From positions 288,001-352,000 of the forward strand of contig CAWAUM010000005.1 in the NCBI GenBank assembly GCA_963785235.1: DNA of 64,000 nt. The letters run 5' to 3'. Every line of letters starts with the position of its first letter. Position 1 is the first letter of the stretch. Below are positions 13,317-52,284 of the stretch, piece by piece. Under the pieces are notes generated by a model that worked only from the letters and a program-made list of their open reading frames with translations, was not told the origin of the DNA and ran no database searches. The translations under genes were made by a program, and so were the position numbers. This DNA comes from an uncultured delta proteobacterium. Its GTDB lineage: Bacteria; Desulfobacterota; Desulfomonilia; UBA1062.

Positions 13317-13547
13317 GTGAATCCCTTTTATTCCCAGGACACCTATATAGGCAGCACCTTCCCTGAGATTGGCAAGTACTTGCGTTTGTCCTGGAAATCT
13401 GAAAAAGAGACAATACCTTCTGGGATTATGATTTGCAACGGCCAGTTACAATGGATCAATCCGCTTTTTGCCATTGCATGAACCCATGAATACTCTATGC
13501 ATCATGATTTGATCATAAACTCATAGTAACCTTGGAATTGTCTTTAA

Positions 13548-13657
13548 AAATAGGTCTGTTAAAACCTGCATCTCGCAGCCTTCGCGGGATACTAACTAGC
13601 GCCGAACAACAGGCTGCGAGATTCAGGGTTTTGAACGGATAAGGTTTTTTTACGCAT
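13548..13657. repeat. Dispersed long palindromic element, copy 1
   Basis: Arms 13555-13580 and 13612-13639 (imperfect IR); arms and flanks match the copy at 51171-51279. Confidence 0.8.
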
Positions 13658-13715
13658 TCTTGAACTACAACATCCGGCTTGGATTTATATACGCAGGGAA
13701 GGGGTTTATCCTATG

Positions 13716-50581: not shown

Positions 50582-51148
50582 ATGGAATTCAGAGAGCTGT
50601 TGAAAAAGAGGCGGGCAATAAGGGAATTTGAGGATAGGCAGGTCGCAGTCCATCTCATCACAGAGATCATCCATGACAGCATACTGGCCCCCAATGCCAG
50701 TAATGCTCAGCCCTGGGCCTTTATCGTGATTAACAACAAGGGCATGATGAAAAGGATCTCGGATGAAAGCAAGAAGAACATACTCAAGGAACTGGAAGTC
50801 AACCCGCTGCCAAACCTGGTGGGCTATAAGCCCATACTGGAGAATCCTGAGTTTAACGTATTCTACAATGCCCCTTGTGTCATCTATATCATCGGTTTGA
50901 ATGACAAGCGCACTGCAACGGTTGATTGCGCACTGGCAGCCGCTTATTTCATGCTTTCAGCTGCGGATCGCGGTCTAGGAACATGCTGGATAGACCTGGG
51001 TTCTGCAATAAAAGACCCTGTCTTGAAAAAGGATATTGGCCTGAGCGAAGAATACAGAATCGTTGCCACCCTGGCACTGGGCTACCCGGTTAGGATACCC
51101 GGCACGACGCCGAGGAACGAGCCGAACATACTCAAGGTTGTGGAATAG
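50582..51148 (+). CDS. Nitroreductase family protein
   Basis: RRAIREF, APNASNAQPW, GLGTCWI. Confidence 0.93.
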   Translation: MEFRELLKKRRAIREFEDRQVAVHLITEIIHDSILAPNASNAQPWAFIVINNKGMMKRISDESKKNILKELEVNPLPNLVGYKPILENPEFNVFYNAPCVIYIIGLNDKRTATVDCALAAAYFMLSAADRGLGTCWIDLGSAIKDPVLKKDIGLSEEYRIVATLALGYPVRIPGTTPRNEPNILKVVE

Positions 51149-51170
51149 GCATCGTAACCCGGATTTCTTT

Positions 51171-51279
51171 AAATAGGTCCGTTAAAAACCTGCATCTCGC
51201 AGCCTTGAAGGTCCGTTGAGATGAGCATTCTTCAGCGGCTGCGAGATGCAGGTTTTTAACGGATCAAGTTTTTACGCAT
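51171..51279. repeat. Dispersed long palindromic element, copy 2
   Basis: Perfect 27-bp inverted repeat 51178-51204 / 51237-51263 around a 32-nt centre. Confidence 0.85.
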
Positions 51280-51306
51280 CTAAAGCACAAAATTTGGATT
51301 TAATAT

Positions 51307-52284
51307 TTATTGTTTGCCTCTCCCGAATTCCTTCAGCAAACGGGTGCGGTCTTCGATGGAGAGGAGGCAGTTGTCCGTGCATTCATCGTCACACCTTCCG
51401 TCGCACGGTTCCACATGGATGGTTACATTCGAATAAGGGAACCGGTCATATATCATGCGGGTAATATCATCCGTGATGCTGTGCGACTTTTCAACGCTCA
51501 TCAGTGGGTCTACAAGCATGTGAAATTCAATGAAACGGATGTGTCCCGCCTTCCTGGTTTTCAGTTTATGATATCCGTGCACATCGGGGTGCATGCTCGT
51601 AATAAGTTCCCTGATCAAAGTCCTCTCAGCCGCTGGTAAGGTGTGGTCCAGAAGGTCTTTTGCAGACTGCATGGTAAGTTCCCATGCTGCATGGATAATG
51701 AGCAGGGCCACAGCGATAGCGGCAATGGGGTCGATCCAGTTCAGTGAAACCCCGGGCATGATACGTCCGCCGATCCATATAAGGAAAAGGCCGGCCATGA
51801 CACCCGCAGATGTGTAGACATCGGTTCTCAAATGCCATGCATCAGCCTTTAACGCCACGGAATCTGTTTTGTTTCCGATTGCAAAAAGCCTCTCCGAGAC
51901 TAATATATTTATAATACAGGATATAAGCATGACTCCGACACCCCATGAGGCTGCTTCGAGGGGTTGCGGGTTCATGAGTCTTTTTATGGCTTCATAGATG
52001 ATCCAACCTGCAGCTAAAAAGATCAGAAGCGCCTCTATCGCCCCTGAGATATTCTCTATCTTTCCATGACCAAAGGGATGTTCCCTGTCAGCAGGTTTAC
52101 CTGAATTCGACACGGATATATAGGCTATTACTGAAGCGATCAGGTCAACACCCGAGTGGATTGCCTCTGATATGATGGATACGGCCCCTATCATTATTCC
52201 CACAATGACCTTCATGATGATCAGCGAAGTATTAGAAAGTATTGATAATCGGGCAACAGTTATCTTTTCTGTTATATTTTCCAT
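51307..52284 (-). CDS. Cation diffusion facilitator transporter (FieF-like)
   Basis: EAIHSGVD, HPFGHGKIE, ADAWHLRTD, IHVEP. Confidence 0.94.
   Translation of the reverse strand: MENITEKITVARLSILSNTSLIIMKVIVGIMIGAVSIISEAIHSGVDLIASVIAYISVSNSGKPADREHPFGHGKIENISGAIEALLIFLAAGWIIYEAIKRLMNPQPLEAASWGVGVMLISCIINILVSERLFAIGNKTDSVALKADAWHLRTDVYTSAGVMAGLFLIWIGGRIMPGVSLNWIDPIAAIAVALLIIHAAWELTMQSAKDLLDHTLPAAERTLIRELITSMHPDVHGYHKLKTRKAGHIRFIEFHMLVDPLMSVEKSHSITDDITRMIYDRFPYSNVTIHVEPCDGRCDDECTDNCLLSIEDRTRLLKEFGRGKQ

What the first reader, a model, noticed from the sequence alone, without database searches (positions are those of the whole stretch)
51171..51279. Dispersed ~110-bp palindromic element with conserved arms and a variable 31-32-nt centre (second copy 13548-13657)
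Seen: two intergenic copies 37.6 kb apart in the same orientation. They share AAATAGGTC, ~27-bp inverted arms (GTTAAAA(A)CCTGCATCTCGCAGCC / GGCTGCGAGAT(G/T)CAGG..TTTT.AACGGA) and the 3' flank TTTTTACGCAT. The centres are unrelated in sequence but nearly equal in length, and each can extend the stem differently (TGAAG/CTTCA vs TTCG/CGAA). Conserved asymmetric flanks are not expected of ordinary terminators. Inference: an unnamed MITE/REP-like family, a recombination site, or a structured RNA with a spacer-like variable segment.
Basis: seen in the sequence. Interest (0 to 1): 0.6.

Follow-up and report, generated by a model that had tools for sequence, protein, structure and literature searches.

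The report
Small mobile repeat with flipping hairpin
The 110-base palindrome is the hairpin core of a small, non-coding mobile DNA repeat present about 80-90 times in this bacterial genome, and its central loop has been turned around many times during evolution while the two arms stay perfectly matched.

Summary
The two window copies belong to a family of about 78-88 copies in this 3.9-Mb genome. One sister species holds at least 31 copies; 39 other relatives had no exact match.

The palindrome is the core of a longer unit of about 150-245 bp. That unit has imperfect terminal inverted repeats, TTAA-like flanking duplications and empty sites in relatives. [quoted passage not shown]

The centres are not unrelated. 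The family has one 32-nt loop consensus that occurs in both orientations relative to the asymmetric flanks: 47 versus 25 of 72 classifiable copies. Copy B has it clearly in one orientation. Copy A has a decayed version, probably in the other.

The 27-bp arms differ between copies (50 haplotypes) yet pair almost perfectly within each copy (97.9% Watson-Crick). At 22 loci shared with the sister species, the loop is inverted in 8.

The best explanation is a selfish MITE whose long palindrome evolves at the DNA level, by replication template switching and copy-to-copy gene conversion. No transposase partner, RAYT link, Rfam family or RNA evidence was found. This is a new member of a known kind, of moderate interest.

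The parts
51155..51303 (.). Copy B, whole element (short-form MITE, about 149 bp). It fills nearly all of the 158-bp spacer between two convergent genes.
   Evidence: Family consensus and boundaries. In 5 relatives the same convergent gene pair is separated by only about 10-70 bp.
51155..51166 (.). Copy B left terminus, TAACCCGGATTT. This is the start of the family's terminal inverted repeat, fused directly to the hairpin flank; the roughly 85-bp 'left module' is missing.
   Evidence: Read and compared with the long-form consensus.
51178..51204 (.). Copy B left arm, 27 nt (TCCGTTAAAAACCTGCATCTCGCAGCC).
   Evidence: It is perfectly complementary to the right arm.
51205..51236 (.). Copy B loop, 32 nt, the family consensus in orientation 'type 1'.
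   Evidence: 89.0 versus 61.0 bits for the two strands, and type 1 better in 76 of 77 comparisons.
51237..51263 (.). Copy B right arm, 27 nt.
51264..51303 (.). Copy B tail (T-run, GTTTTTAC) and right terminal inverted repeat (GCACAAAATTTGGATTTAA).
13458..13680 (.). Copy A, whole element (long-form MITE, about 223 bp, decayed).
   Evidence: It lies between the start of a small-GTPase-like ORF and the stop of an ABC-F ORF.
13458..13480 (.). Copy A left terminal inverted repeat (AATCCGCTTTTTGCCATTGCATG), diverged.
   Evidence: compared with the consensus.
13481..13540 (.). Copy A 'left module', the asymmetric roughly 60-85-bp segment found only in long-form copies.
   Evidence: 34 long-form copies were aligned.
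13555..13580 (.). Copy A left arm, 26 nt.
   Evidence: It pairs imperfectly with the right arm, with bulges and mismatches.
13581..13611 (.). Copy A loop, 31 nt, a decayed copy probably in the inverted ('type 2') orientation.
   Evidence: 50.4 versus 46.1 bits, and 13 of 15 matches at the 5' end to a common type-2 variant. Support is weak.
13612..13639 (.). Copy A right arm, 28 nt.
13640..13680 (.). Copy A tail (T-run) and right terminal inverted repeat (…CAACATCCGGCTT).
50582..51148 (+). Flanking gene of copy B: a 188-aa ORF that I read as nitroreductase-like. That name comes from the translation, not from a family search.
   Evidence: ORF list; conserved next to the CDF-like gene in relatives.
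51307..52284 (-). Flanking gene of copy B: a 325-aa ORF that I read as a cation-diffusion-facilitator-like transporter. That name comes from the translation, not from a family search.

Best explanation
The palindrome is the central hairpin of a non-autonomous DNA transposon (a MITE).

**Anatomy.** The full unit runs in this order:
1. a terminal inverted repeat, (TTAA)-CCCGGATTTTGCRWTTGAATG;
2. in long-form copies only, an asymmetric module of about 85 bp;
3. a 27-bp arm;
4. a 31-33-nt loop;
5. the complementary 27-bp arm;
6. a T-run tail;
7. the inverted terminal repeat.

**Spread (shown).** Copies spread in the lineage of this species and one sister species. They inserted at A/T-rich, TTAA-like sites and survive almost only between genes, preferentially between convergent gene ends.

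**Later evolution (inferred).** After insertion the long palindrome evolves at the DNA level by two processes.
- Replication template switching between the two arms, which copies a change in one arm into the other and can invert the loop.
- Ectopic gene conversion between copies, which can run in either orientation because the arms are palindromic.

Together these would keep the arms perfectly paired, keep them more conserved than the termini, and scramble the loop's orientation relative to the flanks. The patterns are shown; the two processes are inferred from them and from the published mechanism.

**Unknown or speculative.** The mobilising transposase was not found. A role as a bidirectional transcription stop or buffer at gene ends is possible but untested.
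For: **Copy number and distribution.**
- The loosest regex gave 94 hits. After filtering, 78 were accepted as family members: one search flagged 80, and 2 were dropped as false (C1 324555, C12 237972).
- An nhmmer core profile found 88 loci.
- The exact arm pattern occurs in 2 of 41 related genomes: this one (51 matches) and G011 (31).
- A scan of genome collections gave 47 loci. Of these, 38 came from one G011-like MAG, 5 were true single members in other MAGs, and 4 were chance hits.

**Terminal repeats and modular structure.** Shown.

**Mobility.**
- The gene pair flanking copy B is adjacent in G001, G003, G004, G005 and G007 with only about 10-70 bp between the genes.
- G002 lacks four copies on contig C9. 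One of these is a clean site with TCAG duplicated.
- Six elements present in G011 correspond to empty sites in this genome.

**Target duplication.** Of the 9 distinct metagenome loci (of 15 hits) that show both ends, 4 have TTAA and 1 has TTAT on both sides. Two more match at 3 of 4 bases and 2 do not match (read by eye).

**Genomic context.**
- 77 of 78 copies are intergenic.
- 31 lie between convergent genes, against 16.8% of intergenic intervals genome-wide (p about 1e-6).
- There is no orientation bias relative to neighbouring genes.

**Stem pairing.**
- 42 of 78 copies have perfect 27-bp arms and 19 have one mismatch.
- In the 70 copies with 3 or fewer mismatches, 1851 of 1890 cells are Watson-Crick, 10 are G·T and 29 are other.
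- 21 of 27 pairs show changes on both sides, and there are 50 arm haplotypes.

**Loop orientation.**
- 47 versus 25 of 72 classifiable copies (corrected for one false hit).
- All 11 distinct metagenome long-form copies with well-kept termini have the same orientation.

**Loci shared between this genome and G011.**
- Of 22 pairs, the loop has the same orientation in 13, is inverted in 8, and is ambiguous in 1.
- Two inverted pairs (L083, L088) keep the same arms; L088 also has near-identical outer parts.
- L050 and L088 show the same T-to-A change in both arms.

**Conservation gradient.** Mean pairwise identity is 0.52-0.61 at the termini and 0.89-0.95 in the stem.

**Published mechanism.** Template switching between inverted-repeat arms homogenises the arms and inverts the spacer (PMC8604942, abstract and passages read; PMC8794818, abstract in the search listing).
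Against: - **No autonomous partner.** The three DDE_Tnp_1 hits are IS1182-like genes with unrelated ends. DDE_Tnp_4 and DDE_3 gave no hit. All 15 metagenome hits to the terminal repeat are themselves MITE copies.
- **The target duplication is not resolved in this genome.** An automated test over 21 copies gave at most 33% agreement. The 4-bp TTAA reading rests on a few sites, and TTAA is itself palindromic.
- **The conservation gradient is unusual for a transposon.** The termini are the least conserved part and the stem the most conserved. That is the reverse of what transposition alone would preserve, and could mean the hairpin is under host selection.
- **Variation in the stem is concentrated** at positions 7 and 11-16. 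Template switching alone does not explain this.
- **At about half of the shared loci the whole hairpin differs**. Gene conversion is inferred for these, not shown. The association between a changed box and an inverted loop is not significant (Fisher p = 0.18).
- **My gene calls are crude:** a greedy choice among ORFs of 100 aa or more.
Confidence: 0.75

Rival explanations
1. A host-recruited structural element. On this reading the hairpin, with T-runs on both sides, is kept by selection as a bidirectional transcription terminator, an mRNA-end stabiliser or a protein-binding site, as proposed for REP/BIME and some MITEs. The transposon origin would be secondary. This reading is not exclusive of the main one.
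For: - Copies are enriched between convergent genes: 31 of 77 against 16.8% expected.
- The stem is far more conserved than the termini.
- Conserved sequence blocks in the stem flank a freely varying box.
- T5 and T4 runs follow the stem on the two strands.
- Folding is very stable.
Against: - Stem mismatches are not enriched for G·T wobble (10 G·T against 29 other). RNA-level selection would tolerate wobble pairs.
- Many double changes are transversions.
- The T-runs start 2-3 nt after the stem, and the simple terminator scan does not call the long hairpin.
- 13 of 15 genomes of the same genus (G000 included) had no exact-pattern match, so nothing shows the genus needs the element.
- Enrichment at gene ends is also what purifying selection against harmful insertions would produce.
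Confidence: 0.2
2. A REPIN-like element: two inverted conserved ends forming a hairpin, moved as single-stranded DNA by a single-copy RAYT (HUH Y1 transposase).
For: - The overall look is similar: two conserved inverted blocks, a less conserved spacer of fixed length and frequent compensatory changes. The same is described for REPINs (PMC3116915, passages read).
- The genome has two weak Y1_Tnp matches whose translations look RAYT-like, with HUH and Y motifs read by eye.
Against: - No family copy lies within 7 kb of either Y1_Tnp gene here, nor on the 1.8-kb G011 contig that carries its homologue.
- Similar Y1_Tnp genes occur in G002, G003 and G008, which had no exact-pattern match to the family.
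- The units have terminal inverted repeats and TTAA-like flanking repeats. These are typical of DDE transposition, not of IS200-type insertion.
Confidence: 0.08
3. An active invertible switch (inverton). On this reading a site-specific recombinase flips the 32-bp centre between the 27-bp inverted repeats to change local expression.
For: - The loop occurs in both orientations within the genome and at orthologous loci.
- The loop contains a TAAAAT, which resembles a promoter -10 box (read by eye).
Against: - A 32-bp segment is far shorter than known invertible promoters (recalled).
- There are no joints or strand changes at copy B in contigs of 4 metagenome runs. Contigs hide rare variants, so this is weak evidence.
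- The spacing from any -35-like hexamer is 14-15 nt, not 16-18 (by eye).
- Loop orientation does not follow the direction of neighbouring genes: 12 versus 12 and 8 versus 4, tallied by eye.
- Copies with well-kept termini all share one orientation, as expected if flips accumulate slowly.
Confidence: 0.03
4. An integron attC-like recombination site, or a CRISPR-like repeat-spacer unit.
For: - The outer arms contain GTTAAAA / TTTTAAC, which recalls the R' and R'' boxes of attC (by eye, from memory).
- The centre is 31-33 nt, a spacer-like length.
Against: - The stems are perfect, without extrahelical bases.
- Copies are scattered over 12 of 13 contigs in both orientations, not in one-way arrays.
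- The repeats are inverted, not direct.
- The centre is one conserved sequence, not a set of diverse spacers.
Confidence: 0.01

Closest known systems
Bacterial MITEs such as the Correia/NEMIS elements of Neisseria (reviews PMC10969869 and PMC3184786, seen only as search listings and abstracts; details recalled)
   Same: Both are small, non-coding and dispersed between genes. Both have terminal inverted repeats and a short A/T-rich target duplication. Both come in length variants, with or without an internal segment, and the whole unit folds into a long hairpin.
   Different: - No sequence relation was tested; no IS or MITE catalogue was available here.
- No parent IS was found.
- The termini are the least conserved part.
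- The central loop is found in both orientations, including at orthologous loci. I did not find this described for bacterial MITEs in my searches.
REPINs, REP doublets forming hairpins, moved by RAYTs (PMC3116915, passages read)
   Same: Both have two highly conserved inverted blocks separated by a less conserved spacer of fixed length, form a long hairpin, show frequent compensatory changes, and persist in intergenic space.
   Different: - No RAYT gene is flanked by the element.
- Terminal inverted repeats and TTAA-like flanks are present.
- The conserved GTAG-type REP signature (recalled) was not seen.
Template switching at inverted repeats, giving arm homogenisation and spacer inversion (PMC8604942, passages read; PMC8794818, abstract). 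Also the small hairpin-loop inversions of plastid DNA (recalled).
   Same: The same two signatures are seen: arms kept identical despite divergence between copies, and the spacer inverted between close relatives.
   Different: - The published cases are mostly short repeats with spacers of a few bases in yeast, primate or organelle DNA.
- Here the spacer is 32 nt, the arms are 27 bp, and the pattern repeats at about 80 loci of one mobile family.
- About half of the orthologous differences look like whole-hairpin replacement rather than a simple flip.

Membership tests
MITE (non-autonomous DDE-type transposon) | Small size, with no coding capacity | tested here: met
   Units are about 107-245 bp. 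No ORF of 50 aa or more lies wholly within either window copy; those that overlap the copies run on into the flanks.
MITE (non-autonomous DDE-type transposon) | Terminal inverted repeats | tested here: met
   The left end CCCGGATTTTGCRWTTGAATG matches the reverse complement of the right end in the 34-copy consensus and in the metagenome copies. The repeats are imperfect and decayed in this genome.
MITE (non-autonomous DDE-type transposon) | Target site duplication | tested here: inconclusive
   Both ends show TTAA at 4 of the 9 metagenome loci that show both ends, and TTAT at 1. TCAG is duplicated at one site that is empty in G002, and ATTAAA/TTAA at one site that is empty in G000. The automated test on 21 copies of this genome gave at most 33% agreement.
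MITE (non-autonomous DDE-type transposon) | Many dispersed copies, with presence/absence differences between relatives | tested here: met
   There are 78-88 copies on 12 of 13 contigs. Empty sites are shown.
MITE (non-autonomous DDE-type transposon) | A related autonomous IS with the same ends | tested here: not met
   None was found in this genome (93% complete) with PF01609, PF13359 or PF13358, nor among the 15 metagenome hits to the terminal repeat. Its absence from the host genome is common for MITEs (recalled).
REPIN / REP-RAYT system | A RAYT gene flanked by members of the repeat family | tested here: not met
   There are two Y1_Tnp hits in this genome. The nearest family copy is 7.4 kb from one and 14 kb from the other.
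REPIN / REP-RAYT system | Two inverted conserved ends plus a spacer, forming a hairpin with compensatory changes | tested here: met
   This shows a resemblance in form only.
Integron attC site | An imperfect palindrome with extrahelical bases, in one-way arrays next to an integrase gene | tested here: not met
   The stems are perfect, and copies are dispersed in both orientations. Presence of intI was not tested.
Any Rfam RNA family | A match at the family's gathering score | tested here: not met
   Only sub-threshold generic microRNA-hairpin hits for copy B (best 39.7 bits against a cut-off of 86) and nothing meaningful for copy A.
CRISPR array | Direct repeats separating diverse spacers | tested here: not met
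   The arms are inverted repeats, and the centre is one conserved consensus.

The most novel reading that the evidence does not exclude
The hairpin core may be an exchangeable module in its own right: a bacterial 'foldback' cassette that a dedicated hairpin-recognising enzyme copies, swaps and flips among about 90 landing pads. On this reading it would replicate through a self-primed hairpin intermediate. That would explain four things at once:
- the arms are always perfect;
- the loop flips;
- the whole hairpin differs at about half of the loci shared with the sister species;
- hairpin-less scaffolds exist at orthologous sites (L048 against C1 677596).

The conserved arm blocks on either side of a free 6-bp box would then be the enzyme's binding sites.
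Probability: 0.06. Interest if true: 0.8.

Novelty: new member of a known kind. Interest (0 to 1): 0.38.

Why it matters
This is an uncatalogued repeat family in an uncultured lineage. It makes up roughly 0.4% of the genome by my estimate (about 88 loci of about 200 bp), and it would confuse annotation, assembly and small-RNA or terminator prediction there.

Its wider value is as a natural experiment. About 80 copies of one long palindrome, with 22 loci shared between two species, show arm homogenisation and loop inversion happening repeatedly in a bacterium. These are signatures that published work attributes to replication template switching. The family could be used to measure how fast long palindromes flip and convert in bacterial chromosomes.

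It also shows that a 'variable centre' between conserved arms can simply be one sequence read in two directions.

Tried and rejected
**Searches for a known family**
- Rfam search of both copies at permissive E-values: only sub-threshold generic hairpin matches.

**Searches for a parent transposase or RAYT**
- Looking for a parent IS beside solitary terminal-repeat hits (C13 188.5-197 kb): only ordinary genes.
- Genome self-BLAST for multi-copy IS: the repeats found are regulator paralogues and one family of about 0.9-2.1 kb in which the one locus examined has no ORF of 120 aa or more. None has the MITE's ends.
- Pfam transposase searches in the own genome: PF01609 gave IS1182-like genes with unrelated ends; PF13359 and PF13358 gave nothing.
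- RAYT link: not supported.
- Metagenome scan with the terminal repeat, to find an autonomous copy: 15 hits, all MITEs.

**Target duplication and empty sites**
- Automated scoring of the target duplication on this genome's copies: too noisy because the termini are decayed.
- No empty site could be found for copy A. The two flanking genes are not neighbours in the relatives searched.

**Expression and terminator tests**
- Expression: no RNA holder was listed for the copy B region.
- Laying contigs of 4 DNA metagenome runs on copy B showed a depth spike over the repeat and one bridging contig, but no joints. Contigs cannot show rare inversions.
- Simple terminator scan: it calls only a 5-bp mini-hairpin inside each arm of copy B, which is specific to that arm variant. 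It calls nothing at copy A.

**Other tests**
- Loop orientation against neighbouring gene direction: no link (tallied by eye).

Full report
**1. The observation**

The 16-nt arm core occurs 7 times in the window at up to 3 mismatches, against 0.89 expected; 0 of 100 shuffles reached 7. Four of these hits are the four arms. Three are 3-mismatch hits inside genes that do not belong to the family. As single-stranded DNA, copy B folds at -36.9 kcal/mol (z = -12.2) and copy A at -23.9 kcal/mol (z = -5.3). The hairpins are therefore real and far beyond chance.

**2. It is a large family, not two copies**

- A loose regex over the whole 3.91-Mb, 13-contig genome gave 94 hits.
- After requiring the family's outer arm or flank motifs, and dropping two false hits (C1 324555, C12 237972), 78 copies remained.
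- An nhmmer profile of the core found 88 loci, including partial and diverged ones.
- Among 41 related genomes, the exact arm pattern occurs only in this genome (51 matches) and in one genome of the same genus, G011 (31). The other 39 had none. G008 shows weak, diverged relatives.
- A scan of one genome per species gave 47 loci. Of these, 38 came from one G011-like MAG, 5 were true single members in other MAGs, and 4 were chance matches.

**3. The palindrome is the core of a longer unit**

A consensus of the 34 long-form copies has these parts in order:
1. a left end, (TTAA)ACCCGGATTTTGC..TTGAATG;
2. an asymmetric 'left module' of about 85 bp;
3. TTTTTAAAATAGG;
4. the 27-bp arm;
5. the loop;
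6. the complementary arm;
7. ATCAGGTTTTTAC;
8. a right end that is the reverse complement of the left end.

Other forms also exist:
- short forms in which the start of the left end is fused directly to the hairpin flank (copy B);
- symmetric forms with the 'tail' on both sides;
- hairpin-less forms of about 107 bp (for example C13 195635-195741).

In window coordinates, copy A spans about 13458-13680 and copy B about 51155-51303.

**4. Evidence that the unit is, or was, mobile**

- *Copy B site.* The two genes flanking copy B are adjacent and convergent in G001, G003, G004, G005 and G007, with only about 10-70 bp between them. Here the gap is 158 bp, almost all of it the element.
- *Sites empty in G002.* G002, which is 87-91% identical in flanking DNA, lacks four copies on contig C9. 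One clean site shows TCAG on both sides of the element, where G002 has a single TCAG.
- *Sites empty in this genome.* Six elements present in G011 correspond to empty sites here. One has a single ATTAAA where G011 has it on both sides.
- *Metagenome copies.* In copies with better-kept ends, TTAA abuts both ends at 4 of the 9 distinct loci that show both ends, and TTAT at 1. Two more match at 3 of 4 bases and 2 do not match (read by eye).
- *Weaker result.* An automated test on this genome's own decayed copies was inconclusive, with at most 33% agreement over 21 copies.

I read this as a 4-bp, TTAA-like target duplication, held with moderate confidence.

**5. No mobilising enzyme was found**

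- The three DDE_Tnp_1 matches in the genome are IS1182-like genes whose ends are unrelated. DDE_Tnp_4 and DDE_3 gave no match.
- Multi-copy repeats found by self-BLAST are not IS elements with these ends.
- All 15 metagenome matches to the terminal repeat are themselves MITE copies.
- Two weak Y1_Tnp matches look RAYT-like, but the nearest family copies are 7.4 and 14 kb away. Similar genes occur in G002, G003 and G008, which had no exact-pattern match to the family.

**6. The centre is one sequence in two orientations**

The loops share a consensus. Relative to the asymmetric markers just outside the arms, it lies one way in 47 copies and the other way in 25, out of 72 classifiable; 6 of the 78 were unclassifiable (corrected for one false hit). 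Among the 34 long-form copies the split is 25 to 8, with 1 unclear.

Copy B is clearly in the commoner orientation. Copy A's loop is decayed and fits the inverted orientation only slightly better. For copy A this is probable, not certain.

All 11 distinct metagenome long-form copies, which have well-kept ends, carry the loop in the same orientation. This suggests that one orientation is original and that flips accumulate later.

**7. The arms evolve in concert**

- Of 78 copies, 42 have perfectly complementary 27-bp arms and 19 have a single mismatch.
- In the 70 copies with 3 or fewer mismatches there are 50 different arm sequences, yet 1851 of 1890 cells are Watson-Crick.
- 21 of 27 pairs show changes on both sides (215 cells), many of them transversions.
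- The few mismatches are not mainly G·T (10 G·T against 29 other).

This pattern fits symmetry maintained in DNA better than selection on an RNA helix. Variation is concentrated at stem positions 7 and 11-16, with near-invariant blocks on both sides. I cannot explain that concentration.

**8. Orthologous copies show the process directly**

I compared 24 G011 loci with their counterparts here. Two of them matched the same G000 locus and one had no recognisable hairpin, which left 22 pairs.
- The loop has the same orientation in 13 pairs, is inverted in 8, and is ambiguous in 1.
- Two inverted pairs (L083, L088) keep the same arms. In L088 the outer parts are also near-identical, so the loop flipped in place.
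- L050 and L088 carry the same T-to-A change in both arms.
- In about half of the pairs the whole hairpin differs (box and loop subtype), always symmetrically, while the flanking genes are about 95% identical. In some of these pairs one outer half of the element also differs.
- Inversion is commoner when the box differs (6 of 11) than when it is the same (2 of 10). The difference is not significant (p = 0.18; table made by eye).
- Mean pairwise identity within the genome rises from 0.52-0.61 at the termini to 0.89-0.95 in the stem.

**9. Mechanism**

Published work describes DNA polymerase template switching between inverted-repeat arms as producing exactly these two outcomes: homogenised arms and an inverted spacer (PMC8604942, abstract and passages read; PMC8794818, abstract only).

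I therefore propose that the long palindrome is kept symmetric and occasionally flipped by template switching. I further propose that copies exchange hairpins by ectopic gene conversion, which can run in either orientation because the arms are palindromic. Both steps are inferred. The patterns are shown; the processes are not.

**10. Genomic context and possible function**

- 77 of 78 copies are intergenic. Of the 78, 31 lie between convergent genes, 37 between tandem genes, 9 between divergent genes, and 1 inside an ORF call.
- The genome-wide background is 588 convergent, 2325 tandem and 590 divergent intervals (p about 1e-6 for the convergent excess).
- There is no orientation bias relative to neighbours. 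These figures rest on crude gene calls.
- T-runs follow the stem on both strands, so a bidirectional terminator role is conceivable. The simple scan does not test hairpins of this size, and no RNA data were available.
- Contigs from 4 metagenome runs show a depth spike over the element and one contig bridging it, with no inversion joints. Contigs would hide rare variants.

**11. Comparison with known kinds**

- *MITE.* The element meets the MITE features of size, terminal repeats, dispersion and insertion polymorphism. The target duplication is likely but not settled, and no parent IS is known.
- *REPIN.* It looks like a REPIN in form, and compensatory changes are also reported there (PMC3116915), but it fails the defining RAYT association.
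- *Others.* It is not an attC site, a CRISPR unit or an Rfam family.
- *Loop inversion.* My literature searches did not turn up a bacterial MITE or REP family with documented loop inversion. Those searches cover open-access text only and used few terms.

**12. Verdict**

This is a real, uncatalogued MITE family: a new member of a known kind. Its interesting twist is recurrent inversion of the loop and concerted evolution of the arms. Interest is moderate.

Noticed in passing
G000 contig C9, about 23-72 kb (outside the window); L032:9371-10268 and L030:14548-15648: Contig C9 (78 kb) holds 12 family copies in 50 kb. Relative to G002, several insertions carry extra DNA together with the repeat. 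One example is an 895-bp block made of a truncated copy, a roughly 110-aa membrane-protein-like ORF and a full copy, where G002 has 2 bp. This could mean that passenger genes are moved or captured between two copies.
   Followed up: partly
G000 C1:677596-677710, against G011 locus L048: At an orthologous site, G011 has a copy with the hairpin while this genome has a hairpin-less copy (terminal repeat, left module and tail only). Either the hairpin was deleted between the flanking T-runs or it was inserted separately.
   Followed up: partly
G000 C2:265442-267565, C11:126706-128821, C5:536645-538410, C1:581331-582218, C2:36830-37655, C11:75170-75770: A second repeat family of about 0.9-2.1 kb has 5-6 copies at 82-95% identity. 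The one locus examined (C2) has no ORF of 120 aa or more. Rfam finds only a tRNA beside that copy. One copy lies just upstream of the RAYT-like gene at C11:76115. Its nature is unknown.
   Followed up: partly
G000 C11:76085-76612 and C1:221771-222109: Two single-copy Y1_Tnp (HUH) genes whose translations look RAYT-like. The C11 gene is flanked by small unrelated inverted repeats of 14-16 nt, with 33-66 nt between the arms. This may be a separate REP-like system.
   Followed up: partly
window 51190-51202 and 51239-51251: In the arm variant carried by both window copies (box CCTGC), each arm contains its own mini-palindrome, CTGC-ATCTC-GCAG. In copy B this is followed by a T5 run, which the terminator scan calls on both strands. 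Other arm variants lack it.
   Followed up: no
G008, for example C11:16855-16962, C16:62139-62254 and C17:74106-74203: A same-genus genome with no exact arm matches nevertheless has several stretches of about 100 bp that are 69-78% identical to the hairpin region. This suggests an older or sister branch of the family.
   Followed up: no
G000 C5:561874-563382, C13:35062-35883 and C3:500053-500646: One intact 502-aa transposase that looks IS1182-like, and two degraded relatives. Their ends are unrelated to this repeat family.
   Followed up: partly
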